The notes beneath the pieces were generated by a model. It did no database searches, was not told the DNA's origin, and saw only the letters and a program-made list of their open reading frames with translations. This document shows, piece after piece, positions 7,036-37,968 of a stretch of DNA of 64,000 nucleotides; the stretch's first letter is position 1, and each line of letters begins with the position of its first letter. Source of the stretch: Nemertoderma westbladi. Lineage: Eukaryota; Animalia; Xenacoelomorpha. The stretch covers positions 1 to 64,000 of the forward strand of contig JAUCBJ010000073.1 in assembly GCA_032718475.1 (NCBI GenBank). The letters are read 5' to 3'. A program made the position numbers and the translations under genes.

Positions 7036-8735
7036 ATAATATGACGTTATTGACGCTTTATCCCGTAACTCTTTGAGAATTTAATTACCTCACCATAATA
7101 TGACGTTATTGACGCTTTATCCCGTAACTCTTTGAGAATTTAATTACCTCACCATAATAATATGACGTTATTGACGCTTTATCCCGTAACTCTTTGAGAA
7201 TTTAATTACCTCACCATAATGACGTTATTGACGCTTTATCCCGTAACTCTTTGAGAATTTAATTACCTCACCATAATAATATGACGTTATTGACGCTTTA
7301 TCCCGTAACTCTTTGAGAATTTAATTACCTCACCATAATATGACGTTATTGACGCTTTATCCCGTAACTCTTTGAGAATTTAATTACCTCACCATAATAA
7401 TATGACGTTATTGACGCTTTATCCCGTAACTCTTTGAGAATTTAATTACCTCACCATAATGACGTTATTGACGCTTTATCCCGTAACTCTTTGAGAATTT
7501 AATTACCTCACCATAATAATATGACGTTATTGACGCTTTATCCCGTAACTCTTTGAGAATTTAATTACCTCACCATAATAATATGACGTTATTGACGCTT
7601 TATCCCGTAACTCTTTGAGAATTTAATTACCTCACCATAATGACGTTATTAACGCTTTATCCCGTAACTCTTTGAGAATTTAATTACCTCACCATAATAT
7701 GACGTTATTGACGCTTTATCCCGTAACTCTTTGAGAATTTAATTACCTCACCATAATAATATGACGTTATTGACGCTTTATCCCGTAACTCTTTGAGAAT
7801 TTAATTACCTCACCATAATGACGTTATTGACGCTTTATCCCGTAACTCTTTGAGAATTTAATTACCTCACCTTAATAATATGACGTTATTGACGCTTTAT
7901 CCCGTAACTCTTTGAGAATTAAATTACCTCACCATAATGACGTTATTGACGCTTTATCCCGTAACTCTTTGAGAATTTAATTACCTCACCATAATAATAT
8001 GACGTTATTGACGCTTTATCCCGTAACTCTTTGAGAATTTAATTACCTCACCATAATATGACGTTATTGACGCTTTATCCCGTAACTCTTTGAGAATTTA
8101 ATTACCTCACCATAATGACGTTATTGACGCTTTATCCCGTAACTCTTTGAGAATTTAATTACCTCACCATAATAATATGACGTTATTGACGCTATATCCC
8201 GTAACTCTTTGAGAATTTAATTACCTCACCATAATAATATGACGTTATTGACGCTTTATCCCGTAACTCTTTGAGAATTTAATTACCTCACCATAATATG
8301 ACGTTATTGACGCTTTATCCCGTAACTCTTTGAGAATTTAATTACCTCACCATAATATGACGTTATTGACGCTTTATCCCGTAACTCTTTGAGAATTTAA
8401 TTACCTCACCATAATAATATGACGTTATTGACGCTTTATCCCGTAACTCTTTGAGAATTTAATTACCTCACCATAATATGACGTTATTGACGCTTTATCC
8501 CGTAACTCTTTGAGAATTTAATTACCTCACCATAATATGACGTTATTGACGCTTTATCCCGTAACTCTTTAACTCTTTGAGAATTTAATTACCTCACCAT
8601 AATATGACGTTATTGACGCTATATCCCGTAACTCTTTAACTCTTTGAGAATTTAATTACCTCACCATAATATGACGTTATTGACGCTATATCCCGTAACT
8701 CTTTAACTCTTTGAGAATTTAATGACCTCACCATA
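7036..8735. repeat. ~60-bp tandem array, about 28 copies, ending at a KDM1B splice acceptor
   Basis: Unit ATGACGTTATTGACGCTTTATCCCGTAACTCTTTGAGAATTTAATTACCTCACCATA(ATA)n; length varies through AT-rich slippage; the last few units carry an extra AACTCTTT; the last unit ends CCATAG at 8736. Confidence 0.97.
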
Positions 8736-8736
8736 G

Positions 8737-8964
8737 GGCCGCGTTCGCGTCATCGTAGTTGGAGCCGGTGTCGCCGGATTGGTTGTTGCTAGGCAACTAC
8801 ATAACTTTGGTTACAGTGTCACTGTGTTGGAGGCTACTGACCGGGTGGGGGGTCGTTGTCGAGACGACGCCCAATGGTCGTCCGAGGGTGCCACGATGTC
8901 GCCCCTTAGCGGACAGTTTGTGTACGGAGTTGTTAATAACCCCATTACCATGTTGTGTCGTCAG
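8737..8964 (+). CDS. KDM1B: Lysine-specific histone demethylase LSD2/KDM1B, internal exon (FAD-binding Rossmann fold)
   Basis: AG at 8735-8736, GTGAGT at 8965; 228 nt, phase 0; [40 protein letters not shown]...[18 protein letters not shown] and NNP match LSD2 as recalled. Confidence 0.93.
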
Positions 8965-12727: not shown

Positions 12728-15700
12728 ACTACTACTACTAGGTCGAGCGAACTCGGACAGTGGAAATGAGATCCTTCCAGGCTTCCCGATTCTCCATGGT
12801 TGTCGCAATTTCGTTTCTCCCAAGTTCAGTATCCCTTTCAAGTTGATCTATATATGTTATGGCCGGTCGTCCACGACTACGCTTTCCATGAGTTGGTTGC
12901 CAGAGAAGTAGATCTGGTATGACCTCGTCTTTACTTCGCCAGCAGTGCCCACTGAATCTTAATCTGCGTTCACGGAGGGTGGTTGATACAGGTGGTATTG
13001 TACCATAAAGCTCGGCGTTTGTCATGTGTTGTCTCCAGCTGATGTTTAGGGCTGCCCTTAGTAGTCTTGTGTAGCAACCATCAATTCGTTGTTCAAGTGA
13101 TTTAGTCAGTGTCCAGGTCTCACCCCCGTATAAAAATACACTTTCCACTGTGGCTCGAAAGAACTTAGTCTTCAGGTGCCTGGAGAGATCTGATTTCCAG
13201 ATGGGATCTATTTTTGATAGAGCTACCCACCAAGCCTTCGCTTTCTAACTTCTTTGTCCTTTTTGCTACTCTCTATCCATGATCCAAGGTACTGGAAGTC
13301 GTCGACCTTCCTTAGTGGATTATTATCAATGGTTGTCAAGTTTCCATCAACATTAAAGGTCATGAATTCGGTCTTGGTAGCATTTATATGCAATCCAACC
13401 TCCTTAGCAGCCCTCTCCACTTTATTTAGTAGAAGCTGTGCATCTGCTAGCGTATTAGAGAGCAGGGCGATGTCATCCGCAAAGTCGGTGTCTGTGACTG
13501 TAGTTGCCGGATATCTACTACTTCTGCGTTCTTGAAGTGTGAATCCCAGATCTTCACCCTTTGTGGCCGTCCTCATTGCGTAATCCAGCACAATTACAAA
13601 TAGTAATGGTGCTAATGTGTCACCTTGCAGTACGCCAGCCAGGATTGAGAAAAACTCAGTTTCACCATCTGGTGAGAGTACCTGCGCTTCTGTGTCACAA
13701 TATAACAATCCAATGCCAGCAACAATTACTTCTGGTATTCCATAAGCTCTTAGGATTTCAAGCATTTTACCTCTATGGATGGAGTCGAATGCCTTCTTGA
13801 AGTCCACAAAAGTCATGACTGCGGGGAGATTCTTTGACTTAATTCCTTCAATCAGTCTCCGTAGTGCAAGTATCTGAGCTATTGTTGATCTACTTGGTCG
13901 AAATCCGTTTTGGCTCTTACGCAGTAGTTTCTCTATGTGAGGCCTAATCCTATATAGAATCATTTTATTGTATATTTTGGCAGCTACCACAAGCAGACAG
14001 ATCCCACGATAGTTTGTTGGTATGCCGAGGTCTCCTTTCTTGGGGAGAGGCTTTAGTTGACCTTTAGTCCAAATTGGTGGTGGCTTTTCCCCTTTTAACA
14101 TCCGGTTGCAAACATTGCAGGACATTGCTTTCGCCGTGAGGACCAGCCAGTGCATAATCTTGTACTTTGGCAGCCTCATGGAGTGAATAAGCATGGTGGA
14201 CAGCCCATGACTTTCTGGAGACGCATCTTAAAGGACACTGGCCTTAAAGATGCGGATGATCTAGCAAATGTCATGGGTGATAGGGATTTGTGGCGGTGCA
14301 ATTTTGTTGACAAGCCGGCACAGCATTCCTAAAAATGCAGCTGCAATGCAGCATGCCGATCCTAGTAGTGCAAACATTCAATAATGGTCTGTTTAGCACT
14401 CCGGTTTTCCATATCTCCGCTGGGATTTCATCTAATCCACTTGCTTTATTATTGGACATGCTTTTAATGCTTCTTTGGAGTTCGGCAGGTGTGAAGTCCC
14501 CTGTTTCTATAGGTAGTGTCTTGTCATATATTTTCCTTGTAGGGCTGACCTTGATGTTTGGTGGCTGCCCAAGCAAGTTGCTGAAGTGATTTTTCCACTT
14601 CCCAACACGTTCTTCAGGACTATCGGCTTTGAGGCCCCCCTTTCCACAACTTTTCCGACCAGATACCTCATTTACAGTTTGCCAGGTAAGTCTTGATTGT
14701 TGCTGTATGTGAGCAGTTGTAATTGCTTCAGTTTTATCCTGTATGTACTTTTCCTGGCTGATATTGTAGGCCAATTTAAGATCGTCCTTAGCTTTCTCAA
14801 CCTTGTTAATGTTTTCGGTTGTTGGTTGTTCGGTTTTAACTTTGTAGGCTATCTTAAGATCTTCTCTCTTACAAGTAACCTCAGAGTTTTGCCATGGCAC
14901 ATACTGTTTTCGTTTGGGTTTCTGGGGGATATGCCTCTTAGATGATTCCTTGTGGGCTGTTATTATATTCTGGTATATTGAATCGGTGGATTGGTCTTCA
15001 TCCATTGACTGAAGTGCTTCAAAGCGGTTTTGAACTTCTACTGTATAAGCATCCTTTACAGCATTGTCAGTTCTGAGTTTCTCCCAGTCATAGTTGATTT
15101 GCTTGCTTGTCCTGGGTTTGCTGCCTCTCAAATTGAGTCTGATCTCTGCAGTCACAATTCTGTGGTCCGAACCAATTACGTTGAACGAGCTGTATGCCTC
15201 GCAGTTGATCATGCTGTTTCTCCACTTTTTGTTTATAAGGATGTAATCCAGTTGTGCTTTGGTTCCATTAGGGTATTGAAAGGTCCATAGCTTCCCCTTA
15301 CTCTTTTCGAATGTGTTGTTTGTTGGGATCAATTCACATTCTTCCATTAGGTCTAAAAGTAAGTACCCATTTCTGTTAGAACTGGTGTTATAGGTGTAAC
15401 CCTTGATGTCTTCTGGGCCAATTTGCGCATTCAGGTCACCAGCAATGACTTTAACATTGTGTTTCGGAATGTCCTCAATAAGTCCAGTCAGTTCTTCATA
15501 AAACTTGACTGCTTGTTCTGGCTCTGAGGCATTGGTTGGACTGTAGCATAGCAACATATAACTGTTGTCTTGGGATTCCCATCAAATGTTGCGATCATAA
15601 CCCTGGAATTTATAGATTCGATGTTGTTTAGGGTCTTAAGTGCAAATGGGCTTAGCAGAATTCCTACTCCGCCAATTGATGCATTGGCCGAGTTTCTTAC

Positions 15701-15870: not shown

Positions 15871-15995
15871 GATATAAAGTCGGATATATAAATAATAATA
15901 TGTATTGGTAATTGTTTAATCTCGTATATTAGTATTCTATTACTAAGTTTAAAGTATCCCTAGAGATAATTAGTTGGTGTTTATTACTTATTTAG

Positions 15996-16295
15996 GCTGA
16001 TTTTAGTCTGGATCCAATTGTCGACGAGATCCCACTGATCCGTCACAACGGATCTGTTGTGGATCCGTTAATGAACCAACGGATTGACTTCCATTTCAAC
16101 GCTGTTCTTGACGCGATAGCGGAATGGCGAAAGGAAAAATCGATACGGGAAGACGTTGGCTTGGGAGGGAAGATCAAGTTCTTCCATAACGCCTTCGTTG
16201 GCGAGACTAAACTCAGGTTCTCGGAAGAGGAAGACAGACTGATGGAGTTCCATTGCGCCCTTCTAGAACTCAAATGCGGGGCGCCTTTAAATACG
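15996..16295 (+). CDS. KDM1B: KDM1B internal exon (amine oxidase domain)
   Basis: TTTAG|GCT ... ACG|GTGAGT; 300 nt, phase 0; DPLMNQRIDFHFNAVLDAIAEWRK matches the LSD2 DFHFNALLD..EWRK motif. Confidence 0.93.
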
Positions 16296-16507
16296 GTGAG
16301 TTCCAATTAGCCATTCTAGAACTCAAGTCTGGGAATCGAGTGGTTCGTGTTGATACGGTTGTTCTAGAATAGTTCTAGAGTAGTTCTAGAATAGTTCTAG
16401 AGTAGTTCTAGAATAGTTCTAGAGTAGTTATATGCCATAGAACATAATAGTATAATAGTTGCTATTCGTGAAAATAATTCGCGTATTATTTGTTTCTATT
16501 GTATCAG

Positions 16508-16714
16508 GTTTCCTCCCTCTGTTGGGACCAGAACGAATCCTTTGTCCAGTTCGCCGGTTCCTCTGCCAGACTGGTAGAAGGCTACGAAGCAATCACTCGT
16601 CGTCTTACCATTGGTCTAGACATCAAGTTACAGTCCCCAGTCGTCAAAGTAACATACAGTGGTAGTGGTGTGGAAGTGGTGACCTCGAGTGGTGATATAT
16701 GTAAAGGAGATAAA
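16508..16714 (+). CDS. KDM1B: KDM1B internal exon
   Basis: ATCAG|GTT ... AAA|GTGAGT; 207 nt; VSSLCWDQNESFVQFAG...GY...GLDIKLQSPV...YSG. Confidence 0.93.
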
Positions 16715-17288
16715 GTGAGTGATTCCGTATTACATTGTTTTATTTTCTCTTTATTAGCTCACTAACATAACTAACTATAAAATGCAGCTTTATTTCCGAG
16801 AATTTATTTCGCCAAACAAAGTCTAGAATACGTAATGAACAATATCGTTATTACACATAACCTAACACTATTCTGAGTGAACGAATTGTTCAGTCTAATT
16901 GGAACAGTTTTATTCTTGGAGGGATTTCGTGTTTGAAGAAGTCAATTAAGCTGGATAAAGTAAACCTGTATTTTTTGCGGTCATCACAGTGATTAAAGTA
17001 TCAATGTGCACCTGTTATAAAACTCTCATTTAAGAATTAAGTTATAAATCGCTGGACAGCTGCTTGTACAAAAATGAGTGATTTACACAGTTGGTTTTGA
17101 TGTTTCTGACAAACTGATTTATACATTTTAGACTTTTTTACCGTCAGATTTTTTTCTGTGAAAAATTTCAGTCATAAACAAATATTAGTTTCCTATTTGC
17201 TTCCTCACTTATAATTTAACCCCTTCTTGTAATCTGTAGGTAAATGAGTTTATAGTAACTTTAACAACTAAATTAATTTTATTCTCAG

Positions 17289-17804
17289 GTCGTCGTTGCT
17301 GTGCCTCTATCGGTTCTCCAATCGAAAGGGATCCAGTTCGATCCGCCGCTCAAGGAGACCAAGGTCTGTTCGGTAAACCGCCTGGGTTGCGGCCAGACCG
17401 AAAAGGTGATCCTTCGATTCGGTGAGGCCGCCTTCTGGGCCTCCAAGGTGGGTAAATCCCGGGTGTTCGGCGGAGTTCCCACCGGCGGCTCCCGTGGTTG
17501 GTTCTCCGTGTTCTACGACAACTCGACCCGCAACCGGTTCATAATCGCCGGGTTGGTCTCCGGCTCCGCCGTACAGGAGATGCGGTCGCTAAGCGACCAG
17601 CTCGTCGTCGAGCGTTGCTTAGCGACGCTTCGCAAGTTGTTCCCCGAGGAGAAGGTTGGCATTCCCATAGAGACGACTGTTACTCGTTGGTACAAGGAGA
17701 CGTATTCCGGGATGGCGTACAGCTTTATTCCGGTGGGATGTACCCCGGACGATGTTGAATCCATTACCAGCGATGTCGATGGCGTTCTATTCTTTGCCGG
17801 AGAG
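17289..17804 (+). CDS. KDM1B: KDM1B internal exon (includes the conserved catalytic Lys in TEKVIL)
   Basis: CTCAG|GTC ... GAG|GTAAGT; 516 nt; VPL..LQ..IQFDPPL, LGCGQTEKV, RGWFSVFYD, VTRW, MAYSF, FFAGE. Confidence 0.95.
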
Positions 17805-18120
17805 GTAAGTGAAACTACTCACCCTATTATATTGCTGTAAATCCAATAAACATAAATTAGCCCAACAAAGGCAACTAAAAAATGACAATCGTTGTATTTT
17901 GAAGCAAAGCAATCGTAACCCACAGTAGTGTTTAATCGGGATCCCCGTTAAAAATGTAATCCCGGTCCCGATCCCGGTCCCGATCCCGATCCCGGTCCCG
18001 ATTCCGAGTTTTTTTGGAACGGGATCCCGAAGTATATCATCCGATGAATAGTTGAACCAGAAGAGATTGATCTCATCGAATTCTCTGATTACTGGATATC
18101 AGTAAATCATCCAGTAATCA

Positions 18121-21100
18121 AACCAAACTGTTACCGTTTTATATTTACAGCACACCGAACTAACTCAAAATCTTACCGTTTTATATTAGCAGCACACCGA
18201 ACTAACTCAAACTCTTACCGTTTTATATTTGCAGCACACCGAACTAACTCAATCTGTTACCGTTTTATATTTGCAGCACAGCGAACTAACTATAACTGTT
18301 ACCGTTTTATATTTGCAGCACACCGAACTAACTCAAACTGTTACCGTTTTATATTTGCAGCACACCGAACTAACTCAAACTGTTACCGTTTTATATTTGC
18401 AGCACACCGAACTAACTCAAACTGTTACCGTTTTATTTTTGCAGCACACCGAACTAACTCAAGCTGTTAACGTTTTATATTTGCAGCACACCGAACTAAC
18501 TCAAACTGTTACCGTTTTATATTTGCAGCACACCGAACTAACTCAAACTGTTACCGTTTTGTATTTGCAGTACACCGAACTAACTCAAACTGTTACCGTT
18601 TTATATTTGCAGCACACCGAACTAACTCAAACTGTTACCGTTTTATATTTGCAGCACACCGAACTAACTCAAACTGTTACCGTTTTATATTTGCAGCACA
18701 CCGAACTAACTCAAATTGTTACCGTTTTATATTTGCAGCACACCGAACTAACTCAAACTGTTACTGTTTTATATTAGCAGCATATCGAACTAACTGAAAC
18801 TCTTACCGTTTTATATTAGCAGCACACCGAACTAACTCAAACTGTTACCGTTTTATATTTGCAGCACACCGAACTAACTAAAACTGTTACCGTTTTATAT
18901 TAGCCGCACACCGAACTAACTCAAACTCTTACCGTTTTATATTTGCAGCACACCGAACTAACTCAAACTGTTCCGTTTTATATTAGCAGCACACCGAACT
19001 AACTCAAACTCTTACCGTTTTATATTAGCAGCACACCGAACTAACTCAAACTCTTAGCGTTTTATATTTGCAGCACACCGAACTAAATCAAATTCTTACC
19101 GTTTTATATTAGCACCACACCGAACTAACTCAAACTCTTATCGTTATATATTTTCAGCACACCGATCTAACTCAAACTCTTACCGTTTTATATTTGCAGC
19201 ACACCGAATTACTCAAACTGTTACTGTTTTATATTTGCAACACACCGAACTAACTCAAACTGTTACCGTTTTATATTTGCAGCACTCCGAACTAACTCAA
19301 ACTGTTACCGTTTTATATTTGCAGCACACCGAACTAACTCAAACTGTTACCGTTTTATATTTGCAGCACACCGAACTAACTCAAAATCTTACCGTTTTAT
19401 ATTAGCAGCACACCGAACTAACTCAAACTCTTACCGTTTTATATTTGCAGCACACCGAACTAACTCAATCTGTTACCGTTTTATATTTGCAGCACAGCGA
19501 ACTAACTATAACTGTTACCGTTTTATATTTGCAGCACACCGAACTAACTCAAACTGTTACCGTTTTATATTTGCAGCACACCGAACTAACTCAAACTGTT
19601 ACCGTTTTATATTTGCAGCACACCGAACTAACTCAAACTGTTACCGTTTTATTTTTGCAGCACACCGAACTAACTCAAGCTGTTACCGTTTTATATTTGC
19701 AGCACACCGAACTAACTCAAACTGTTACCGTTTTATATTTGCAGCACACCGAACTAACTCAAACTGTTACCGTTTTATATTTGCAGCACACCGAACTAAC
19801 TCAAACTGTTACCGTTTTATATTTGCAGCACACCGAACTAACTCAAACTGTTACCGTTTTATATTTGCAGCACACCGAACTAACTCAAACTGTTACCGTT
19901 TTATTTTTGCAGCACACCGAACTAACTCAAGCTGTTACCGTTTTATATTTGCAGCACATCGAACTAACTCAAACTGTTACCGTTTTATATTTGCAGCACA
20001 CCAAACTAACTCAAACTGTTACCGTTTTATATTTGCAACACATCGAACTAACTCAAACTGTTACCGTTTTATATTTGCAGCACACCAAACTAACTCAAAC
20101 TATTACCGTTTTATATTTGCAGCACATCGTACTAACTCAAACTGTTACCGTTTTATATTTGCAGCACACCGAACTAACTTAAACTGTTACCGTTTTATAT
20201 TTGCAGCACACCGAACTAACTCAAACTGTTACCGTTTTATATTAGCAGCACACCGAACTAACTCAAACTGTTACCGTTTTATATTAGCAGCACACCGAAC
20301 TAACTCAAACTGTTACCGTTTTATATTTGCAGCACACCGAACTAACTCAAACTGTTACCGTTTCATATTTGCAGCACACCGAACTAACTCAACTCTTACC
20401 GTTTTATATTTGCAGCACACAGAACTAACTCAAACTCTTACCGTTTTATATTTGCAGCACACCGAACTAACTCAAACTGTTACCGTTTTATATTTGCAGC
20501 ACACCGAACTAACTCAAAAACTCTTACCGTTATATATTTGCAACATACCGAACTAACTCAAACTGTTACCGTTTTATATTTGCAGCACACCGAACTAACT
20601 CAAACTCTTACCGTTTTATATTTACAGCACACCGAACTAACTCAAACTGTTACCGTTTTATATTTGCAGCACACCGAACTAACTCAATATGTTACCGTTT
20701 TATATTTGCAGCACAGCTAACTAACTATAACTGTTACCGTTTTATATTTGCAGCACACCGAACTAACTCAAACTGTTACCGTTTTATATTTGCAGTACTC
20801 CGAACTAACTCAAACTTTTACCGTTTTATATTTGCAGCACACCGAACTAACTCAAACTGTTACCGTTTTATATTTGCAGCACACCGAACTAACTCAAACT
20901 GTTACCGTTTTGTATTTGCAGTACACCGAACTAACTCAAACTGTTACCGTTTTATATTTGCAGCACACCGAACTAACTCAAACTGTTACCGTTTTATATT
21001 TGCAGCACACCGAACTAACTCAAACTGTTACCGTTTTATATTTGCAGCACACCGAACTAACTCAAACTGTTACCGTTTTATATTTGCAGCACACCGAACT

Positions 21101-24100
21101 AACTCAAACTGTTACCGTTTTATTTTTGCAGCACACCGAACTAACTCAAGCTGTTAACGTTTTATATTTGCAGCACACCGAACTAACTCAAACTGTTACC
21201 GTTTTATATTTGCAGCACACCGAACTAACTCAAACTGTTACCGTTTTGTATTTGCAGTACACCGAACTAACTCAAACTGTTACCGTTTTATATTTGCAGC
21301 ACACCGAACTAACTCAAACTGTTACCGTTTTATATTTGCAGCACACCGAACTAACTCAAACTGTTACCGTTTTATATTTGCAGCACACCGAACTAACTCA
21401 AATTGTTACCGTTTTATATTTGCAGCACACCGAACTAACTCAAACTGTTACTGTTTTATATTAGCAGCATATCGAACTAACTGAAACTCTTACCGTTTTA
21501 TATTAGCAGCACACCGAACTAACTCAAACTGTTACCGTTTTATATTTGCAGCACACCGAACTAACTAAAACTGTTACCGTTTTATATTAGCCGCACACCG
21601 AACTAACTCAAACTCTTACCGTTTTATATTTGCAGCACACCGAACTAACTCAAACTGTTCCGTTTTATATTAGCAGCACACCGAACTAACTCAAACTCTT
21701 ACCGTTTTATATTAGCAGCACACCGAACTAACTCAAACTCTTAGCGTTTTATATTTGCAGCACACCGAACTAACTCAAACTCTTACCGTTTTATATTAGC
21801 ACCACACCGAACTAACTCAAACTCTTATCGTTATATATTTTCAGCACACCGATCTAACTCAAACTCTTACCGTTTTATATTTGCAGCACACCGAATTACT
21901 CAAACTGTTACTGTTTTATATTTGCAACACACCGAACTAACTCAAACTGTTACCGTTTTATATTTGCAGCACTCCGAACTAACTCAAACTGTTACCGTTT
22001 TATATTTGCAGCACACCGAACTAACTCAAACTGTTACCGTTTTATATTTGCAGCACACCGAACTAACTCAAAATCTTACCGTTTTATATTAGCAGCACAC
22101 CGAACTAACTCAAACTCTTACCGTTTTATATTTGCAGCACACCGAACTAACTCAATCTGTTACCGTTTTATATTTGCAGCACAGCGAACTAACTATAACT
22201 GTTACCGTTTTATATTTGCAGCACACCGAACTAACTCAAACTGTTACCGTTTTATATTTGCAGCACACCGAACTAACTCAAACTGTTACCGTTTTATATT
22301 TGCAGCACACCGAACTAACTCAAACTGTTACCGTTTTATTTTTGCAGCACACCGAACTAACTCAAGCTGTTACCGTTTTATATTTGCAGCACACCGAACT
22401 AACTCAAACTGTTACCGTTTTATATTTGCAGCACACCGAACTAACTCAAACTGTTACCGTTTTATATTTGCAGCACACCGAACTAACTCAAACTGTTACC
22501 GTTTTATATTTGCAGCACACCGAACTAACTCAAACTGTTACCGTTTTATATTTGCAGCACACCGAACTAACTCAAACTGTTACCGTTTTATTTTTGCAGC
22601 ACACCGAACTAACTCAAGCTGTTACCGTTTTATATTTGCAGCACATCGAACTAACTCAAACTGTTACCGTTTTATATTTGCAGCACACCAAACTAACTCA
22701 AACTGTTACCGTTTTATATTTGCAACACATCGAACTAACTCAAACTGTTACCGTTTTATATTTGCAGCACACCAAACTAACTCAAACTATTACCGTTTTA
22801 TATTTGCAGCACATCGTACTAACTCAAACTGTTACCGTTTTATATTTGCAGCACACCGAACTAACTTAAACTGTTACCGTTTTATATTTGCAGCACACCG
22901 AACTAACTCAAACTGTTACCGTTTTATATTAGCAGCACACCGAACTAACTCAAACTGTTACCGTTTTATATTAGCAGCACACCGAACTAACTCAAACTGT
23001 TACCGTTTTATATTTGCAGCACACCGAACTAACTCAAACTGTTACCGTTTCATATTTGCAGCACACCGAACTAACTCAACTCTTACCGTTTTATATTTGC
23101 AGCACACAGAACTAACTCAAACTCTTACCGTTTTATATTTGCAGCACACCGAACTAACTCAAACTGTTACCGTTTTATATTTGCAGCACACCGAACTAAC
23201 TCAAAAACTCTTACCGTTATATATTTGCAACATACCGAACTAACTCAAACTGTTACCGTTTTATATTTGCAGCACACCGAACTAACTCAAACTCTTACCG
23301 TTTTATATTTACAGCACACCGAACTAACTCAAACTGTTACCGTTTTATATTTGCAGCACACCGAACTAACTCAATATGTTACCGTTTTATATTTGCAGCA
23401 CAGCTAACTAACTATAACTGTTACCGTTTTATATTTGCAGCACACCGAACTAACTCAAACTGTTACCGTTTTATATTTGCAGTACTCCGAACTAACTCAA
23501 ACTTTTACCGTTTTATATTTGCAGCACACCAAACTAACTCAAACTGTTACCGTTTTATTTTTGCAGCACACCGAACTAACTCAAACTGTTACCGTTTTAT
23601 ATTTGCAGCACACCGAACTAACTCAAACTGTTACCGTTTTATATTTGCAGCACACCGAACTAACTCAAACTGTTACCGTTTTATATTTGCAGCACACCGA
23701 CCGAACTAACTCAAACTGTTACCGTTTTATATTTGCAGCACACCGAACTAACTCAAACTGTTACCGTTTTATATTTGCAGCACACCGAACTAACTCAAAC
23801 TGTTACTGTTTTATATTTGCAACATATCGAACTAACTCAAACTCTTACCGTTTTATATTAGCAGCACACCGAACTAACTCAAACTGTTACCGTTTTATAT
23901 TTGCAGCACACCGAACTAACTCAAACTGTTACCGTTTTATATTTGCAGCACACCGAACTAACTCAAACTGTTACTGTTTTATATTTGCAGCACACCGAAC
24001 TAACTCAAACTGTTACCGTTTATATTTGCAGCACACCGAACTAACTCAAACTGTTACTGTTTTATATTTGCAGCATATCGAACTAACTCAAACTCTTACC

Positions 24101-27100
24101 GTTTTATATTAGCAGCACACCGAACTAACTCAAACTGTTACCGTTTTATATTTGCAGCACACCGAACTAACTCAAACTGTTACCGTTTTATATTAGCCGC
24201 ACACCGAACTAACTCAAACTGTTACCGTTTTATATTTGCAGCACACCGAACTAACTCAAACTGTTACCGTTTTGTATTTGCAGTACACCGAACTAACTCA
24301 AACTGTTACCGTTTTATATTTGCAGCACACCGAACTAACTCAAACTGTTACCGTTTTATATTTGCAGCACACCGAACTAACTCAAACTGTTACCGTTTTA
24401 TATTTGCAGCACACCGAACTAACTCAAATTGTTACCGTTTTATATTTGCAGCACACCGAACTAACTCAAACTATTACTGTTTTATATTAGCAGCATATCG
24501 AACTAACTGAAACTCTTACCGTTTTATATTAGCAGCACACCGAACTAACTCAAACTGTTACCGTTTTATATTTGCAGCACACCGAACTAACTAAAACTGT
24601 TACCGTTTTATATTAGCCGCACACCAAACTAACTCAAACTCTTACCGTTTTATATTTGCAGCACACCGAACTAACTCAAACTGTTCCGTTTTATATTAGC
24701 AGCACACCGAACTAACTCAAACTCTTACCGTTTTATATTAGCAGCACACCGAACTAACTCAAACTCTTAGCGTTTTATATTTGCAGCACACCGAACTAAA
24801 TCAAATTCTTACCGTTTTATATTAGCACCACACCGAACTAACTCAAACTGTTACCGTTTTATATTTGCAGCACTCCGAACTAACTCAAACTGTTACCGTT
24901 TTATATTTGCAGCACACCGAACTAACTCAAACTGTTACCGTTTTATATTTGCAGCACACCGAACTAACTCAAAATCTTACCGTTTTATATTAGCAGCACA
25001 CCGAACTAACTCAAACTCTTACCGTTTTATATTTGCAGCACACCGAACTAACTCAATCTGTTACCGTTTTATATTTGCAGCACAGCGAACTAACTATAAC
25101 TGTTACCGTTTTATATTTGCAGCACACCGAACTAACTCAAACTGTTACCGTTTTATATTTGCAGCACACCGAACTAACTCAAACTGTTACCGTTTTATAT
25201 TTGCAGCACACCGAACTAACTCAAACTGTTACCGTTTTATTTTTGCAGCACACCGAACTAACTCAAGCTGTTACCGTTTTATATTTGCAGCACACCGAAC
25301 TAACTCAAACTGTTACCGTTTTATATTTGCAGCACACCGAACTAACTCAAACTGTTACCGTTTTATATTTGCAGCACACCGAACTAACTCAAACTGTTAC
25401 CGTTTTATATTTGCAGCACACCGAACTAACTCAAACTGTTACCGTTTTATATTTGCAGCACACCGAACTAACTCAAACTGTTACCGTTTTATTTTTGCAG
25501 CACACCGAACTAACTCAAGCTGTTACCGTTTTATATTTGCAGCACATCGAACTAACTCAAACTGTTACCGTTTTATATTTGCAGCACACCAAACTAACTC
25601 AAACTGTTACCGTTTTATATTTGCAACACATCGAACTAACTCAAACTGTTACCGTTTTATATTTGCAGCACACCAAACTAACTCAAACTATTACCGTTTT
25701 ATATTTGCAGCACATCGTACTAACTCAAACTGTTACCGTTTTATATTTGCAGCACACCGAACTAACTTAAACTGTTACCGTTTTATATTTGCAGCACACC
25801 GAACTAACTCAAACTGTTACCGTTTTATATTAGCAGCACACCGAACTAACTCAAACTGTTACCGTTTTATATTAGCAGCACACCGAACTAACTCAAACTG
25901 TTACCGTTTTATATTTGCAGCACACCGAACTAACTCAAACTGTTACCGTTTCATATTTGCAGCACACCGAACTAACTCAACTCTTACCGTTTTATATTTG
26001 CAGCACACAGAACTAACTCAAACTCTTACCGTTTTATATTTGCAGCACACCGAACTAACTCAAACTGTTACCGTTTTATATTTGCAGCACACCGAACTAA
26101 CTCAAAAACTCTTACCGTTATATATTTGCAACATACCGAACTAACTCAAACTGTTACCGTTTTATATTTGCAGCACACCGAACTAACTCAAACTCTTACC
26201 GTTTTATATTTACAGCACACCGAACTAACTCAAACTGTTACCGTTTTATATTTGCAGCACACCGAACTAACTCAATATGTTACCGTTTTATATTTGCAGC
26301 ACAGCTAACTAACTATAACTGTTACCGTTTTATATTTGCAGCACACCGAACTAACTCAAACTGTTACCGTTTTATATTTGCAGTACTCCGAACTAACTCA
26401 AACTTTTACCGTTTTATATTTGCAGCACACCGAACTAACTCAAACTGTTACCGTTTTATATTTGCAGCACACCGAACTAACTCAAACTGTTACCGTTTTG
26501 TATTTGCAGTACACCGAACTAACTCAAACTGTTACCGTTTTATATTTGCAGCACACCGAACTAACTCAAACTGTTACCGTTTTATATTTGCAGCACACCG
26601 AACTAACTCAAACTGTTACCGTTTTATATTTGCAGCACACCGAACTAACTCAAACTGTTACCGTTTTATATTTGCAGCACACCGAACTAACTCAAACTGT
26701 TACCGTTTTATTTTTGCAGCACACCGAACTAACTCAAGCTGTTAACGTTTTATATTTGCAGCACACCGAACTAACTCAAACTGTTACCGTTTTATATTTG
26801 CAGCACACCGAACTAACTCAAACTGTTACCGTTTTGTATTTGCAGTACACCGAACTAACTCAAACTGTTGCCGTTTTATATTTGCAGCACACCGAACTAA
26901 CTCAAACTGTTACCGTTTTATATTTGCAGCACACCGAACTAACTCAAACTGTTACCGTTTTATATTTGCAGCACACCGAACTAACTCAAATTGTTACCGT
27001 TTTATATTTGCAGCACACCGAACTAACTCAAACTGTTACTGTTTTATATTAGCAGCATATCGAACTAACTGAAACTCTTACCGTTTTATATTAGCAGCAC

Positions 27101-30100
27101 ACCGAACTAACTCAAACTGTTACCGTTTTATAATTGCAGCACACCGAACTAACTAAAACTGTTACCGTTTTATATTAGCCGCACACCGAACTAACTCAAA
27201 CTGTTACCGTTTTATATTTGCAGCACACCGAACTAACTCAAACTGTTACCGTTTTATATTTGCAGCACACCGAACTAACTCAAACTGTTACCGTTTTATT
27301 TTTGCAGCACACCGAACTAACTCAAGCTGTTACCGTTTTATATTTGCAGCACATCGAACTAACTCAAACTGTTACCGTTTTATATTTGCAGCACACCAAA
27401 CTAACTCAAACTGTTACCGTTTTATATTTGCAACACATCGAACTAACTCAAACTGTTACCGTTTTATATTTGCAGCACACCAAACTAACTCAAACTATTA
27501 CCGTTTTATATTTGCAGCACATCGTACTAACTCAAACTGTTACCGTTTTATATTTGCAGCACACCGAACTAACTTAAACTGTTACCGTTTTATATTTGCA
27601 GCACACCGAACTAACTCAAACTGTTACCGTTTTATATTAGCAGCACACCGAACTAACTCAAACTGTTACCGTTTTATATTAGCAGCACACCGAACTAACT
27701 CAAACTGTTACCGTTTTATATTTGCAGCACACCGAACTAACTCAAACTGTTACCGTTTCATATTTGCAGCACACCGAACTAACTCAACTCTTACCGTTTT
27801 ATATTTGCAGCACACAGAACTAACTCAAACTCTTACCGTTTTATATTTGCAGCACACCGAACTAACTCAAACTGTTACCGTTTTATATTTGCAGCACACC
27901 GAACTAACTCAAAAACTCTTACCGTTATATATTTGCAACATACCGAACTAACTCAAACTGTTACCGTTTTATATTTGCAGCACACCGAACTAACTCAAAC
28001 TCTTACCGTTTTATATTTACAGCACACCGAACTAACTCAAACTGTTACCGTTTTATATTTGCAGCACACCGAACTAACTCAAATTGTTACCGTTTTATAT
28101 TTGCAGCACACCGAACTAACTCAAACTGTTACTGTTTTATATTAGCAGCATATCGAACTAACTGAAACTCTTACCGTTTTATATTAGCAGCACACCGAAC
28201 TAACTCAAACTGTTACCGTTTTATATTTGCAGCACACCGAACTAACTAAAACTGTTACCGTTTTATATTAGACGCACACCGAACTAACTCAAACTCTTAC
28301 CGTTTTATATTTGCAGCACACCGAACTAACTCAAACTGTTCCGTTTTATATTAGCAGCACACCGAACTAACTCAAACTCTTACCGTTTTATATTAGCAGC
28401 ACACCGAACTAACTCAAACTCTTAGCGTTTTATATTTGCAGCACACCGAACTAACTCAAACTCTTACCGTTTTATATTAGCACCACACCGAACTAACTCA
28501 AACTCTTATCGTTATATATTTTCAGCACACCGATCTAACTCAAACTCTTACCGTTTTATATTTGCAGCACACCGAATTACTCAAACTGTTACTGTTTTAT
28601 ATTTGCAACACACCGAACTAACTCAAACTGTTACCGTTTTATATTTGCAGCACTCCGAACTAACTCAAACTGTTACCGTTTTATATTTGCAGCACACCGA
28701 ACTAACTCAAACTGTTACCGTTTTATATTTGCAGCACACCGAACTAACTCAAAATCTTACCGTTTTATATTAGCAGCACACCGAACTAACTCAAACTCTT
28801 ACCGTTTTATATTTGCAGCACACCGAACTAACTCAATCTGTTACCGTTTTATATTTGCAGCACAGCGAACTAACTATAACTGTTACCGTTTTATATTTGC
28901 AGCACACCGAACTAACTCAAACTGTTACCGTTTTATATTTGCAGCACACCGAACTAACTCAAACTGTTACCGTTTTATATTTGCAGCACACCGAACTAAC
29001 TCAAACTGTTACCGTTTTATTTTTGCAGCACACCGAACTAACTCAAGCTGTTACCGTTTTATATTTGCAGCACACCGAACTAACTCAAACTGTTACCGTT
29101 TTATATTTGCAGCACACCGAACTAACTCAAACTGTTACCGTTTTATATTTGCAGCACACCGAACTAACTCAAACTGTTACCGTTTTATATTTGCAGCACA
29201 CCGAACTAACTCAAACTGTTACCGTTTTATATTTGCAGCACACCGAACTAACTCAAACTGTTACCGTTTTATTTTTGCAGCACACCGAACTAACTCAAGC
29301 TGTTACCGTTTTATATTTGCAGCACATCGAACTAACTCAAACTGTTACCGTTTTATATTTGCAGCACACCAAACTAACTCAAACTGTTACCGTTTTATAT
29401 TTCGTGACCATAGAGCCAGAACAACACATACCACAATTTTTCAAAAAAAAAATTTTTCACCAAAATTACTCAAGATGGCGTTCTACATCTTATGTTAAAA
29501 TCCTAGACTTGTATGTCAGTTCGTTTAGGAGATATGGAAAACCAGAACAACCCACACAACATAGAAGTTGAAAACTGTTAGACGTAAAACAACACATACC
29601 ACACTTTCCCTATCATACTTTGCCAGGAAAAACACCATTCAATAGTCGAGGAATGACGTGAGTTCTTATGTTTCTGTGATAAAATCCTAGAGGTAAAACA
29701 ACACACACAGATTAGAGTTAATGTTAAATTTCAGTTTGTGTTGTTTTGCCTCTTTGGAAAATAACGAAAAAAACAGTTTTTTTCATTAACAAAATTTATT
29801 CTGAATGCTAGCCACTATTATAAAATGTGTCATTGTATCTTCCCAGACCTCTGTCGAAAAAATTAGGAGACGGGATCCATATAGAGGGAAATGAGAAGGT
29901 TTTTTGCATTTTTCTCGAAACCACATTTTTTGGTGAGTGTTGTTCTGGCTCTTTGGTCACGATTTGCAACACATCGAACTAACTCAAACTGTTACCGTTT
30001 TATATTTGCAGCACACCAAACTAACTCAAACTATTACCGTTTTATATTTGCAGCACATCGTACTAACTCAAACTGTTACCGTTTTATATTTGCAGCACAC

Positions 30101-32582
30101 CGAACTAACTTAAACTGTTACCGTTTTATATTTGCAGCACACCGAACTAACTCAAACTGTTACCGTTTTATATTAGCAGCACACCGAACTAACTCAAACT
30201 GTTACCGTTTTATATTAGCAGCACACCGAACTAACTCAAACTGTTACCGTTTTATATTTGCAGCACACCGAACTAACTCAAACTGTTACCGTTTCATATT
30301 TGCAGCACACCGAACTAACTCAACTCTTACCGTTTTATATTTGCAGCACACAGAACTAACTCAAACTCTTACCGTTTTATATTTGCAGCACACCGAACTA
30401 ACTCAAACTGTTACCGTTTTATATTTGCAGCACACCGAACTAACTCAAAAACTCTTACCGTTATATATTTGCAACATACCGAACTAACTCAAACTGTTAC
30501 CGTTTTATATTTGCAGCACACCGAACTAACTCAAACTCTTACCGTTTTATATTTACAGCACACCGAACTAACTCAAACTGTTACCGTTTTATATTTGCAG
30601 CACACCGAACTAACTCAATATGTTACCGTTTTATATTTGCAGCACAGCTAACTAACTATAACTGTTACCGTTTTATATTTGCAGCACACCGAACTAACTC
30701 AAACTGTTACCGTTTTATATTTGCAGTACTCCGAACTAACTCAAACTTTTACCGTTTTATATTTGCAGCACACCAAACTAACTCAAACTGTTACCGTTTT
30801 ATTTTTGCAGCACACCGAACTAACTCAAACTGTTACCGTTTTATATTTGCAGCACACCGAACTAACTCAAACTGTTACCGTTTTATATTTGCAGCACACC
30901 GAACTAACTCAAACTGTTACCGTTTTATATTTGCAGCACACCGACCGAACTAACTCAAACTGTTACCGTTTTATATTTGCAGCACACCGAACTAACTCAA
31001 ACTGTTACCGTTTTATATTTGCAGCACACCGAACTAACTCAAACTGTTACTGTTTTATATTTGCAACATATCGAACTAACTCAAACTCTTACCGTTTTAT
31101 ATTAGCAGCACACCGAACTAACTCAAACTGTTACCGTTTTATATTTGCAGCACACCGAACTAACTCAAACTGTTACCGTTTTATATTTGCAGCACACCGA
31201 ACTAACTCAAACTGTTACTGTTTTATATTTGCAGCACACCGAACTAACTCAAACTGTTACCGTTTATATTTGCAGCACACCGAACTAACTCAAACTGTTA
31301 CTGTTTTATATTTGCAGCATATCGAACTAACTCAAACTCTTACCGTTTTATATTAGCAGCACACCGAACTAACTCAAACTGTTACCGTTTTATATTTGCA
31401 GCACACCGAACTAACTCAAACTGTTACCGTTTTATATTAGCCGCACACCGAACTAACTCAAACTCTTACCGTTTTATATTTGCAGCACACCGAACTAACT
31501 CAAACTGTTACCGTTTTATATTAGCAGCACACCGAACTAACTCAAACTGTTACCGTTTTATATTAGCAGCACACCGAACTAACTCAAACTGTTACCGTTT
31601 TATATTGGCAGCACACCGAACTAACTCAAACTGTTACCGTTTTATATTTGCAGCACACCGAACTAACTCAAACTGTTACCGTTTTATATTTGCAGCACAC
31701 CGAACTAACTCAAACTGTTACCGTTTTATATTTGCAGCACACCGCACTAACTCAAACCGTTACCGTTTTATTTTTGCAGCACACCGAACTGCTCAAACTC
31801 TTACCATTCTATATTTGCAGCACACCTAACTAACTGAAACTATTACCGTTTTATATTTGAAACACACCGAACTAACTCAAACACTTACCGTTTTATAATT
31901 GCAGCACACCGAACTAACTCAAACTGTTACCGTTTTATATTTGCAACACACCGAACTAACTCAAACTCTTACCGTTTTATATTTACAGCACACCGAACTA
32001 ACTCAAACTCTTACCGTTTTATATTTACAGCACACCGAACTAACTCAAACTCTTACCGTTTTATATTTACAGCACACCGAACTAACTCAAACTCTTACCG
32101 TTTTATATTTACAGCATACCGAACTAACTCAAACTGTTACCGTTTTATATTTGCAGCACATCGAACTAACTCAAACTGTTACCATTTTATATTTGCAGCA
32201 CAACGAACTAACTGAAACTGTTACCGTTTTATATTTGCAGCACACCGAACTAACTCAAACTCTTACCGTTTTATATTTGCAGCACACAAGAATAACTCAA
32301 ACTGTTACCGTTTTATATTTGCAGCACACCGAACTAACTCAAACTCTTACCGTTTTATATTTGCAGCACACAAGAATAACTCAAACCGTTACCGTTCTAT
32401 TTTTACAGCACACCGAACTTACTCAAACTCTTACCGTTTTATATTTGCAGCACACAAGAATAACTCAAACTGTTACCGTTTTATATTTGCAGCACACCGA
32501 ACTAACTCAAACTCTTACCGTTTTATATTTGCAGCACACAAGAATAACTCAAACCGTTACCGTTCTATTTTTACAGCACACC
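18121..32582 (+). repeat. 42-bp satellite array (about 330 units) filling the last KDM1B intron; each unit is a copy of the 3' splice-site region
   Basis: Unit GAACTAACTCAAACTGTTACCGTTTTATATTTGCAGCACACC; runs directly into the terminal exon at TTACAG|CACACC; interrupted once by a MITE at 29403-29961; diagnostic variants recur in multi-kb blocks. Confidence 0.98.
29403..29961. mobile_element. Non-autonomous TIR element (559 bp), possibly Sola1-like, inserted in the satellite
   Basis: TIRs CGTGACCATAGAGCCAGAACAACACATACCA / TGGTGAGTGTTGTTCTGGCTCTTTGGTCACG; comparison with uninterrupted units shows ATTT duplicated (AWWT-type 4-bp TSD). The superfamily call is inference. Confidence 0.85.
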
Positions 32583-32663
32583 AACCGCAGTTTCCCCCAG
32601 ACTGTTACCGGCGCCTACCTTAGTGGAATACAAGAAGCTTCTCGAGTCGTTGTGAATACCTGA
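32577..32663 (+). CDS. KDM1B: KDM1B terminal coding exon
   Basis: TTACAG|CAC; HTNRSFPQTVTGAYLSGIQEASRVVVNT-stop continues FFAGE in phase 0 and matches the LSD2 C-terminus TNRHFPQTVTGAYLSG.REA. Confidence 0.95.
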   Translation, partial: HTNRSFPQTVTGAYLSGIQEASRVVVNT

Positions 32664-32836: not shown

Positions 32837-32842
32837 AATAAA
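32837..32842 (+). promoter_or_regulatory. Candidate polyadenylation signal for KDM1B
   Basis: AATAAA about 175 nt after the stop codon, followed by GT/T-rich sequence. Confidence 0.55.
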
Positions 32843-34545: not shown

Positions 34546-37500
34546 CAGGGCCTTCATAAAATAACAGGCCTGGACACAGAGCTGCCCTCAAAAAAATAAG
34601 AGGCCAAGTAGGAAGTGTTACTTCATTTCACTCTATGATCATGGGACCAACACATATCAGTACTATATCGTGTATGGGGAATTTAATGGACACATTTTTA
34701 AGTCACAGTTACCATAGCAACAGTGACTTTCTCCTTAGCAATGGGTAAACAAACAACTTTGTGGCCATTGGATCAACAGAAATCAGTACTATATCGTGTA
34801 TGGGGAGTTTAATGGACACATTTTTAAGTCAGTTACCATAGCAACATAGATTTTCTCCTTAGCAACGGCTGAACTAACAAGTTTGGGGCTATGTGACCAA
34901 CACCCACCCCACTATATCGGGTATGACTTTCGCCCTAGCAACGGGTAAGTAAGGGCTCTTTTTCGTTATCTGTATGCTATATACAGTAGCCTATACATCT
35001 ATATCTATCTATATATCTATATCTATCTATAAGTATAAAGCCATTTCGTTATAAAGTAAGCTAACTTTTTATTGATGATACCATTAATATCTGATAATAA
35101 TTTATTGATATTACGTGAATGATTAATTAAACATTTACTTTATTTTCTGAACTGACATTAAAGATTGCGTTTCATAGATAAATTATACAAAAAGAATTAG
35201 TATTTCGATCATGTTTGTAAAATGTTGACGTAAATAGTTCCATCATCCAACACTTTTCAACTTTTTGAGTTTTTTGTCGTCAGCTATCTGCTTTTTCCGT
35301 TTTGCTGATTCGTTTGTGACGTTTTTTCTGAAATTATTGAGAAGAATATTAGACAGCCGGCCCTGCAACGATGTTCCCTCACCCATTTTGTGACCACTTT
35401 TACACTTTGACATGCCGAGCAGCTGTCCAAATAATGCAACTAATAATTTCCGTGGTGCTTTACTGGACAGGAATTTATTTCGTGTACTTGCTTCAGTCAT
35501 CAACAGCTTTAGGCTTGCGAGACATCGTGAAACATATAATACAAGCCACTTACAAGGAACAGTGAGTTTTCCTCTGTCAATCATCGTAGTATATTGAAAT
35601 GACTTATCGAGGTAAATTGTTAAGTCATTGTCAGTTAGTTCAGCTTTGCAATCATCACATTTAATCTTATGTTTGATTCTGAAAGCTAACACTCCAGCCA
35701 AGTATATTACCACCATTGCATCATTTTCGGATTCTTCCTCTAGTAGACAGTCAACTTGTGGGTTACCCAGTATTGTATTTATAATATCATAATCTTCACT
35801 AGTTAGACTGCTCTCACTACCATCACCTTTAAATTGATCCAGAAATGAGGAAAGAGTTAGATTGAAATTGCGCTGATTCGATTGGAACAACTTTATGAGT
35901 GACTTCAGCTTTAGTTTTCGTTCAGAACAAATGATCTCGTACACACTGATGAGATAGGAGCACCCACTCATCCTCCGAAATAGAGCAAAAAGGTGTTCTA
36001 TTGCATCGTTCTGAAAACGTCCAGGTAAAATATACTTGTATAGTATAGATCAATATTGTAATTTGACAATGTTGTTACTTTCATCATCATGGACATAAGT
36101 AATTTCATTCCAGTCTGCAGTGATTGTGTTGGTAGATACTTTGTCTTTAACTTTTTCTTTAAAAAAACAGGTATTGTCAAATATTGTTCCTCTCGAATCA
36201 TCGTCAGTTGAAATCACTTCAACATTGGCATCCACATCATTCGCTTCATGGTTCTCCAAATCATCAATGTTGAAGTTCCAATCTGATGTAGTTGGAAGTA
36301 TATTTTTAATGTAAACCGTTGGTGTTGTTAGGAGCTTTGTAAATGGTGGGACAATTAACTCAATGGGATCAGGAAAAGTGACTAAACCTTTGTTTACAAA
36401 GTTATTGCGGAAGCATTTTATTTCATGCACTGGATCTCCCATATTAAATAAAACTCTGCCAGTAAAGGGATTTATTATCACAGCTCCTCCAATAGCCTCT
36501 GTGGCGCTATGATTCGTTCGATTACCATCCAGGATGAGAGCAATAGCATTCAGAGTACATACATGCAGTACTTTCAAACTTTCCATGATAGCATTCTTGA
36601 GAATATCTGTATTAAGGTTAACCACTGGTTTCATCATCACCACTTCCTTTTCTTTACTGCGCAGAAAAACTACCTGCATGACCAAGAGTGTTTTTGCCAA
36701 ATACTCACATACATCATTCTCACAAGGTATAGGGATTGGCCCTTCAGGTAATCCAAATAGTTTTCCTTCATTGTACATTAATTTGGCTTGTACATAAACT
36801 TCGTCTATCTGCAGAATACAGTCATAGTCACGAAGGTGAGAAAATCTCGACGACCAGTAAGATTGAGCCTCTCCAATTCCACTAACTAATCTTCTAAGAT
36901 GACGCTCACTAGGAAAATATAGTAACTCTGACAGTTCGCGATAAGCAGCAGCGGAAATTGCATGCAAAATCACCGAGAAACACAATAAGTCAGCTAGTTT
37001 ACCAAAACGGTGACGATTTGGAGGAGTGCAGCTTAACTCAATTTGATCTGCGCACAATCTAAATAACTTACTTTGCTTTTCATCAACTACCTTATCTGAA
37101 AGTCCCTGTAGGTCTTTCACAACGCTTTCTATTGTAGCATTATGTATTTCATTCCATTCGACTTCTTTGGCAAAGGTTAACACACTATTCAATTCACTAT
37201 ATCGAGAGATCTTCTCCCATTTTGTCAAGTGCCCCGGCAACGTAATTTTCTTACCGTTAACGAAAACTTTCACCATGCCATTGCTGTCTAAACTGACTAA
37301 AGAACCAGCTTCGCTTTCACCATGCTCTCCAAAAAGGTGAACGACATTTTCATTATTTTGGATTAAGTTATAGAATAGCTTGTTTGGTTCAGATAGTTCG
37401 CCCTCATCGAATTGAGATGTGGACACTATTATGTCACTTGACAAAAACTCTCTGATCTCCGCATCTAGTCTTTCACCCTCATCTTCTCTTCTCTGCAGTT

Positions 37501-37968
37501 GATGCAAATGAATTTGAGCTTGCTTCCACATTACCCCGGCACGAAAACGGTGTTGCATCTCTATGAAGGCGCATTCTTTGCCCTGTTCCAATCACATGAC
37601 TTGGAATGAAATGGTTCTCACAAACTCCCATACTATCAGTTAATGTCACTACACCATTTTCGCGTAGTGCCTCTTGCCACAACTTTCTCTTTTCGACGTT
37701 TTTTGGTGGAGCAAAAACAGTTCTCAATGCACTCCGCTGACTCCCACTTTCACAGTTATTGACACTGCAGTGTCTAACCATAATTTCAAAATTTCACAAC
37801 ACACAACAAGTATTTAATAAAATATTAAATTATTTTTGTTCTAGAACATAACTCCATTGGCAATTTGTGTAAATCCTTTATGATTTTATTCTTGAAAACT
37901 TCCTACTTGGCCTCTTATTTTTTTGAGGGCAGCTCTGTGTCCAGGCCTGTTATTTTATGAAGGCCCTG
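34546..37968 (-). mobile_element. P-element-family DNA transposon, defective
   Basis: Perfect 71-bp TIRs starting CAGGGCCTTCATAAAATAAC (34546-34616 and 37898-37968); GCTCTGT on both flanks; ~125-bp subterminal direct repeats at 34640-34950; encodes a THAP-DDE transposase. Confidence 0.93.
35243..37781 (-). pseudogene. THAP-domain P-element transposase, disrupted
   Basis: THAP C2CH (CSVNNC..W..VCENHF..ATP); IDEV, LDG and DPVHEIKCFRNN; after an in-frame TGA at 36050-36052, YILPGRFQNDAIEHLFALFRRMSG; frame change after THAP; most of the insertion domain appears absent. Confidence 0.88.

What the first reader, a model, noticed from the sequence alone, without database searches (positions are those of the whole stretch)
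17805..32663. A 14.8-kb intron built from about 330 tandem copies of its own 3' splice site
Seen: each 42-bp unit has ACTAAC (branch A about 30 nt upstream of the AG), a T-rich tract, TTGCAG and then CACACC, the same first six bases as the terminal exon. The acceptor needed to complete the conserved FAD-binding C-terminus is the last one (32576), and it has a weaker branch motif (AATAAC) than the decoys. Splicing to the first unit (AG ending 18150) gives HTELTQNLTVLY-stop, a truncated enzyme. The units contain no consensus 5' splice site. Known: simple scanning favours the first AG after a good branch point, and terminal exons are defined together with the poly(A) site. Inference: the gene must skip hundreds of consensus acceptors, relying on poly(A)-coupled terminal exon definition or stepwise splicing. 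The array could also act as a length-dependent expression control or an SF1/U2AF/U2 snRNP sink.
Basis: partly seen in the sequence, partly recalled or inferred. Interest (0 to 1): 0.82.

Follow-up and report, generated by a model that had tools for sequence, protein, structure and literature searches.

The report
Giant acceptor "mirage" in LSD2 intron
The last intron of an animal's histone demethylase gene (KDM1B/LSD2) holds 330 head-to-tail copies of its own intron-exon border; the cell likely splices past them to the last copy, which would make this a very large, likely tolerated case of a repeat type already described in lancelets as a "mirage".

Summary
The last intron (17805-32576, 14,772 bp) of a KDM1B/LSD2 gene with five stop-free exons holds 330 copies of a 42-bp unit spanning its own acceptor; 302 end in AG. 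Only the last acceptor restores the conserved motif spacing.

- The unit is a decayed copy of the intron end plus about 34 exon bases.
- It is 14 codons long and open in the exon's frame, so the 15 AG decoys nearest the exon would insert residues, not truncate.
- One decoy matches the real site over 156 intron and 6 exon bases, so intron-side signals cannot separate them.
- A 559-bp insert brings two GTGAGT donors into the array.

This fits the lancelet "mirage" class and mirrors the human F7 donor repeat. The scan already noted many such arrays in other genes of this genome (unchecked notes). Most likely it is a tolerated repeat expansion, with the true site chosen from the exon side (exon sequence plus nearby poly(A) signal). 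No RNA was available, so which AG is used is untested here. Nothing supports a regulatory role or stepwise splicing.

The parts
8737..8964 (+). KDM1B/LSD2 exon with the GxGxxG FAD-binding motif (76 codons, phase 0); the exons for the N-terminal half were not found in the window
   Evidence: N-terminal searches blank
15996..16295 (+). KDM1B exon (100 codons, phase 0)
16508..16714 (+). KDM1B exon (69 codons, phase 0)
17289..17804 (+). Penultimate exon, 172 codons, ends FFAGE
   Evidence: human KDM1B E 9e-39; KDM1A E 9e-21
17805..32576 (+). Last intron, 14,772 bp, GTAAGT to TTACAG; the first 319 bp are not array
18124..18150 (+). Partial first unit and first decoy acceptor; begins with the 13-bp motif shared with the exon
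18151..32576 (+). 330 tandem 42-bp units (commonest type at e.g. 18319-18360); 302 end in AG; built of higher-order blocks
29403..29961 (.). 559-bp MITE-like insert with terminal inverted repeats and ATTT on both sides; holds GTGAGT at 29658 and 29933 on the + strand
31905..32576 (+). Last 16 units, open in frame into the terminal exon; 15 AG decoys (31904-32534) read through to the true stop
32253..32414 (+). Twin of the real acceptor (AG ending 32408): identical to the real site over 156 nt upstream and 6 nt downstream
32577..32663 (+). Coding part of the terminal exon (28 codons plus stop); its first 34 nt resemble the unit
32837..32842 (+). AATAAA followed by a GT-rich stretch; likely poly(A) signal, 260 nt after the real acceptor
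   Evidence: function inferred

Best explanation
This is a locus-specific minisatellite spanning the last intron-exon border of a KDM1B/LSD2 gene, which likely arose by tandem duplication of that border and is likely tolerated because splicing would pick the last copy from the exon side. Shown: 330 units, each an intron end plus exon-like bases; an intact catalytic reading frame that needs the last AG; higher-order blocks; an exact twin site 168 nt upstream. Inferred origin: a duplication of about 14 intron and 34 exon bases. The exon part then decayed, losing 6 bases and both internal AGs and gaining ACTAAC, and the unit was amplified in blocks by unequal exchange. Inferred splicing: in a long intron an acceptor is committed only with a partner downstream. 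Decoys are followed only by more repeat. The last copy is followed by the complete exon and, 260 nt on, the poly(A) signal. Some leak to the nearest decoys is expected, and would give in-frame 14-residue insertions that likely inactivate the enzyme.
For: Gene intact: five exons join in phase 0 with no internal stop, 445 aa, 41-48% identical over 430-447 columns to 5 of 5 homologues compared, 3 of them named KDM1B or histone demethylase by their sources. Spacing fixed: 81 of 81 motif-bearing proteins have 8 residues at this junction; 72 of the 153 scanned lacked the motif as written. Origin: unit and exon share a 12/13 match (5 of 2000 shuffles), the unit aligns to exon start plus intron end (1 of 5000 shuffles), and the array's left edge begins with that same 13-mer. 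Turnover: a 64-unit block repeats with 6 differences in 2687 bp, and 48 units repeat exactly. Edge units diverge more (2.8 against 1.2 differences per unit), as reported for BflGb6 (PMC3087553). Intron-side choice is excluded for at least one decoy by the 156+6 nt twin. Tandem arrays cover 38.5% of the window, and a second array abuts another acceptor of the same gene. Lancelet mirages are reported not to disturb splicing. Last-exon coupling to 3' end processing is described, as is cross-exon proximity in long introns.
Against: No transcript of this gene was seen, so use of the last AG is inferred. In the human data of PMC9225289, long introns reduced the preference for the upstream acceptor but are not said to reverse it. 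Decoys 42 and 168 nt upstream would still define an ordinary-sized last exon, so poly(A) proximity alone is a thin discriminator. The insert's two GTGAGT sites match the hexamer of 3 of the gene's 4 donors, so exon definition should create a 293-nt pseudo-exon there. In human 6-16 and CBS, two pseudo-sites are used besides the real one. The exons for the N-terminal half were not found in the window.
Confidence: 0.7

Rival explanations
1. Leaky choice with consequences: a large share of transcripts splices to decoys. The nearest give in-frame insertions, the distant ones truncations with long repeat tails. Array length or edge variants therefore set the dose of active LSD2, as a burden or as a tuning device.
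For: The unit is 14 codons and open in frame; 15 decoys reach the true stop. One decoy is identical to the real site over 162 nt. Neighbouring pseudo-sites are used in human 6-16 and CBS. An unchecked note on this genome reports use of a variant donor copy in GALNS.
Against: The final open run of 16 units is not special; runs of 18, 18, 18, 16, 16 and 15 occur inside the array. Unchecked notes on four other acceptor arrays of this genome report transcripts joined to the true copy. Nothing here shows selection on length.
Confidence: 0.15
2. The gene copy is dead or silent, perhaps broken recently by the expansion, so no splice choice is made.
For: The N-terminal exons were not found within 8.7 kb upstream, where retrotransposon-like sequence lies.
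Against: 445 codons without stop or frameshift, GT-AG at all four introns, conserved motifs, an intact terminal exon and AATAAA. Introns here run to 7-15 kb, so the 5' exons may lie outside the window.
Confidence: 0.07
3. The array is real but its length is inflated by assembly.
For: Blocks of 38-48 units (up to 2 kb) are exactly repeated. A lancelet mirage was reported as mis-assembled in a draft genome.
Against: 63 unit types, 16 of them single-copy. Block copies differ (6 of 2687 bp). The insert sits in 1 of 5 copies of its host unit. The window has no N.
Confidence: 0.05
4. The intron is removed stepwise (recursive splicing) through the array.
For: Many evenly spaced acceptors with ACTAAC.
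Against: Recursive sites need AG followed by a donor (own knowledge). Units give AG|CAC, and GTRAG occurs only in the insert.
Confidence: 0.03

Closest known systems
Lancelet 'mirage' minisatellites, above all globin BflGb6 (PMC3087553, passages read); also Adh3, troponin C and PGBD5 (PMC3902484, passages read; the Adh3 and troponin C papers themselves not seen)
   Same: Tandem copies of an intron's 3' end plus the start of the next exon, many keeping the AG; homogenised core with divergent edge units; reported not to disturb splicing.
   Different: 330 units against 3-6 in BflGb6; the exon part is decayed beyond the first 6 bases; it precedes the terminal exon, so no downstream donor is available; the unit is a multiple of 3 and open in frame; splicing not observed here.
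Human F7 intron 7 37-bp VNTR, with the 6-16, CBS, LAMIN B2 and PDGF arrays (PMC1557585, abstract and passages read)
   Same: A minisatellite whose end unit spans an exon border and repeats the splice site into the intron; the site next to the exon is preferred.
   Different: Those are donor arrays of 5-25 copies, where the true site is transcribed first. Here acceptors are repeated and the true one is transcribed last, after 14 kb of decoys.
KDM1B/LSD2 (PDB 4GU0 and relatives)
   Same: Best match of both last exons; colinear over the whole amine oxidase domain.
   Different: The N-terminal half was not found in the window.

Membership tests
Mirage minisatellite | Tandem repeat unit spans an intron-exon boundary of the host gene | tested here: met
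   Units end in the acceptor and begin with the exon's first 6 bases; further exon likeness at 5 of 2000 and 1 of 5000 shuffles
Mirage minisatellite | Many but not all copies keep the splice signal | tested here: met
   302 of 330 units end in AG
Mirage minisatellite | Concerted evolution of the core with divergent boundary units | tested here: met
   Higher-order blocks; 1.2 against 2.8 differences per unit for the core and the last 20 units
Mirage minisatellite | Normal mRNA is still made | not testable with these tools
   No RNA run was listed
Mirage minisatellite | Length differs between haplotypes or cells | not testable with these tools
   One sequence only; no genome is held
Recursive-splicing intron | Acceptor directly followed by a donor (AG|GT) | tested here: not met
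   Units give AG|CAC; GTRAG occurs only in the insert
KDM1B/LSD2 | Closer to LSD2 than to LSD1, colinear amine oxidase domain | tested here: met
   136 against 78 bits; 6-17 gaps over 430-447 columns
KDM1B/LSD2 | N-terminal zinc finger and SWIRM domains (recalled) | tested here: inconclusive
   Not found in the window; may lie upstream of it
Coding tandem repeat (LRR-like) | Repeat is part of the protein and under coding constraint | tested here: not met
   58 units carry a stop and 23 an indel; the final open run is unremarkable; third-position GC 0.31 against 0.46-0.72 in exons; Pfam LRR hits have 0 stretches passing alone

The most novel reading that the evidence does not exclude
The spliceosome, cued by the 3' end machinery and exon sequence, picks one acceptor out of 303 at single-unit (42-nt) resolution, even against an exact twin. 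The in-frame edge decoys give a ladder of dead, repeat-extended LSD2 forms, so array length and edge variants act as a heritable dial on a histone demethylase. In an animal where such arrays fill many introns, this would point to an unusually strict exon-side splicing rule.
Probability: 0.12. Interest if true: 0.72.

Novelty: new member of a known kind. Interest (0 to 1): 0.36.

Why it matters
How a last exon is chosen when identical acceptors are transcribed first is an open question that is usually probed with two-site minigenes. This locus is a natural version with built-in controls: an exact twin 168 nt upstream, in-frame decoys without a premature stop, and an insert that supplies donors mid-array. 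The repeat class is known and the scan has noted many such arrays in this genome, so the genome-wide pattern matters more than this one gene.

Tried and rejected
- Whole genome: none is held, so no genome-wide splice consensus or paralogue check was possible.
- RNA runs for 15990-17810: none was listed; this is no evidence either way. No reads were laid.
- Exact scan of metagenome contigs for the terminal exon's first 34 bases: 0 matches.
- Word-based protein searches for this species' own spliced product: 1 distant hit among 1305 candidates, and 0 among 143. The best representative was 48% identical. The organism was not identified.
- N-terminal exons: nothing significant by profile or tblastn.
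- RNA structure hiding decoys or marking the real site: rejected for the 3 stretches folded, z +0.55, +1.44, +0.51.
- Coding LRR reading: rejected.
- Dispersed satellite: no match to the unit outside the array in this window.
- Selection for stop codons in decoys: the TAG variant is in 46 units, but block duplication makes the counts non-independent, so it was not tested.
- My first exon borders were off by 1-3 bases and were corrected. The pyrimidine counts for two other acceptors share that offset and were not used.
- Seven literature searches found no paper on this locus or on acceptor arrays of this size. The library lacks most subscription papers. No supplements were read; those of PMC3087553 hold the BflGb6 alignment and may bear on the comparison.

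Full report
Observation. TRF reports one array at 18124-32582 with period 42. Segmenting against the commonest unit gives 330 units from 18151 to 32576 and a 27-bp partial unit in front. 307 units are 42 bp and 23 carry an indel; 302 end in AG, 248 in TTGCAG. 293 have both ACTAAC and a final AG. Counting the partial unit there are 303 AG acceptors, the last being the real one. The unit was not found elsewhere in the window.

Host gene. The exon 17289-17804 matches human KDM1B at E 9e-39 and KDM1A at E 9e-21. The exon 32577-32663 matches the next KDM1B residues. Five exons (8737-8964, 15996-16295, 16508-16714, 17289-17804, 32577-32663) join in phase 0 with GT-AG borders and no internal stop. 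The 445-aa model is 41-48% identical to 5 of 5 homologues compared. The N-terminal half was not found in the window. Among 153 proteins held, 81 carry the motif across this junction and all 81 have 8 residues there; 72 lacked the motif as written. A working enzyme therefore most likely needs the last acceptor.

What the unit is. It shares the exon's first 6 bases and also a 12/13 match to exon bases 22-34, which code QTVT in both (5 of 2000 shuffles). It aligns to the exon start plus the intron end with one 6-base gap (1 of 5000 shuffles), and the left edge of the array starts with the same 13-mer. I infer a duplication across the acceptor, decay of the exon part, then block amplification. A 64-unit block repeats with 6 differences in 2687 bp, and 48 units repeat exactly 5588 bp away. 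The last 20 units differ more from the consensus than the core (2.8 against 1.2). A 559-bp element with inverted ends and ATTT on both sides sits at 29403-29961 in 1 of 5 copies of its host unit. That argues the blocks are distinct DNA, though length inflation by assembly is not excluded.

First, the commonest unit reads HTELTQTVTVLYLQ without a stop in the exon's frame. 58 units carry an in-frame stop. The median decoy ends after 45 residues, but 15 decoys (31904-32534) read through to the true stop and would add 14-224 residues inside the conserved motif. Second, the decoy ending 32408 equals the real site over 156 bases upstream and 6 downstream. No rule based on branch point, pyrimidine tract or AG can separate the two. 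Third, the insert holds GTGAGT twice, the hexamer of 3 of the gene's 4 donors. The pseudo-exon 29365-29657 would carry a stop. Fourth, AATAAC at the real site need not be weak in this species: 0 of 4 other acceptors have ACTAAC within 40 nt, and the real site has the top pyrimidine count (11 of 14, reached by 17 of 303).

Mechanism. The likely choice is from the exon side. [quoted passage not shown] In long introns the sites closest across the exon are favoured (PMC9225289, abstract and passages). Against this: for acceptors that paper reports only a reduced upstream preference, the nearest decoys would still define a normal-sized exon, and the insert's donors should activate one decoy. Exon sequence beyond base 6 is probably needed as well; this is inference. 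RNA folding gave no signal in 3 of 3 stretches. Recursive splicing lacks AG|GT sites. No RNA could be examined: none was listed, and protein and contig searches did not return this species' transcript.

What is known. Lancelet genes carry 'mirages', tandem copies of exon borders. BflGb6 repeats an intron's 3' end plus the exon start 3-6 times, and RT-PCR suggested normal splicing (PMC3087553, passages; PMC3902484, passages). I took the term and these two papers from earlier notes of this scan and checked the passages myself. Human F7, 6-16, CBS, LAMIN B2 and PDGF are donor-side cases (PMC1557585, abstract and passages), which I found by my own search. Three structural features of the class were met here; normal splicing and length polymorphism could not be tested.

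Context. Tandem arrays cover 38.5% of the window. A second array (7036-8735) ends at another acceptor of the same gene, but its units stop one base short of the AG (26 CACCATAA, 1 CATAG). Earlier notes on this genome list many exon-border arrays, some larger than this one, and several report transcripts using the true site. 70 of 79 notes fit my first look-up by words. These notes are unchecked and are not counted as support.

Verdict. The feature is real and a new member of a known kind. It is most likely a tolerated by-product of a minisatellite-prone genome (0.7). Its value lies in being a terminal-exon case with natural controls. Interest 0.36.

Noticed in passing
window 7036-8735: A second array (about 28 copies of a 59-67-bp unit) ends at the acceptor of the GxGxxG exon. 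Its units copy the intron end but stop one base before the G of AG, so they hold no copy of that acceptor (26 CACCATAA, 1 CATAG); each has one other AG, in TGAG.
   Followed up: partly
window 16261-16429: A 13-bp piece near the end of exon 15996-16295 recurs 19 bases into the next intron, followed by an 11/22-bp repeat of its core; possibly a decayed donor-side duplication.
   Followed up: partly
window 29403-29961: MITE-like insert with about 30-bp inverted ends and a 4-bp ATTT duplication; no second copy in the window.
   Followed up: partly
window 34546-37968: P-element-like DNA transposon with long inverted ends and a transposase frame on the minus strand (Pfam PF21787), inserted into a 20-bp minisatellite.
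   Followed up: partly
window 12738-15581 (- strand): Broken LINE-like element (RVT_1 hit) inside the intron after exon 8737-8964.
   Followed up: no
window 2-2026: 674-codon open frame with a zinc-knuckle-like and a protease-like motif by eye, likely an LTR retrotransposon fragment; no Pfam hit.
   Followed up: no
window 61585-63810: Single long frame with an ARID domain and in-frame 30-, 24- and 24-bp tandem repeats.
   Followed up: no
window 41230-44394 and 47596-49345: Further large arrays (22 bp x 145; 59 bp x 30). The second begins at a stop codon that ends a short open frame, and its minus strand carries GTAAGT in many units; host genes not worked out.
   Followed up: no
window 17845-17850: An AATAAA lies 40 nt after the last donor; no other AATAAA occurs in the intron.
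   Followed up: no
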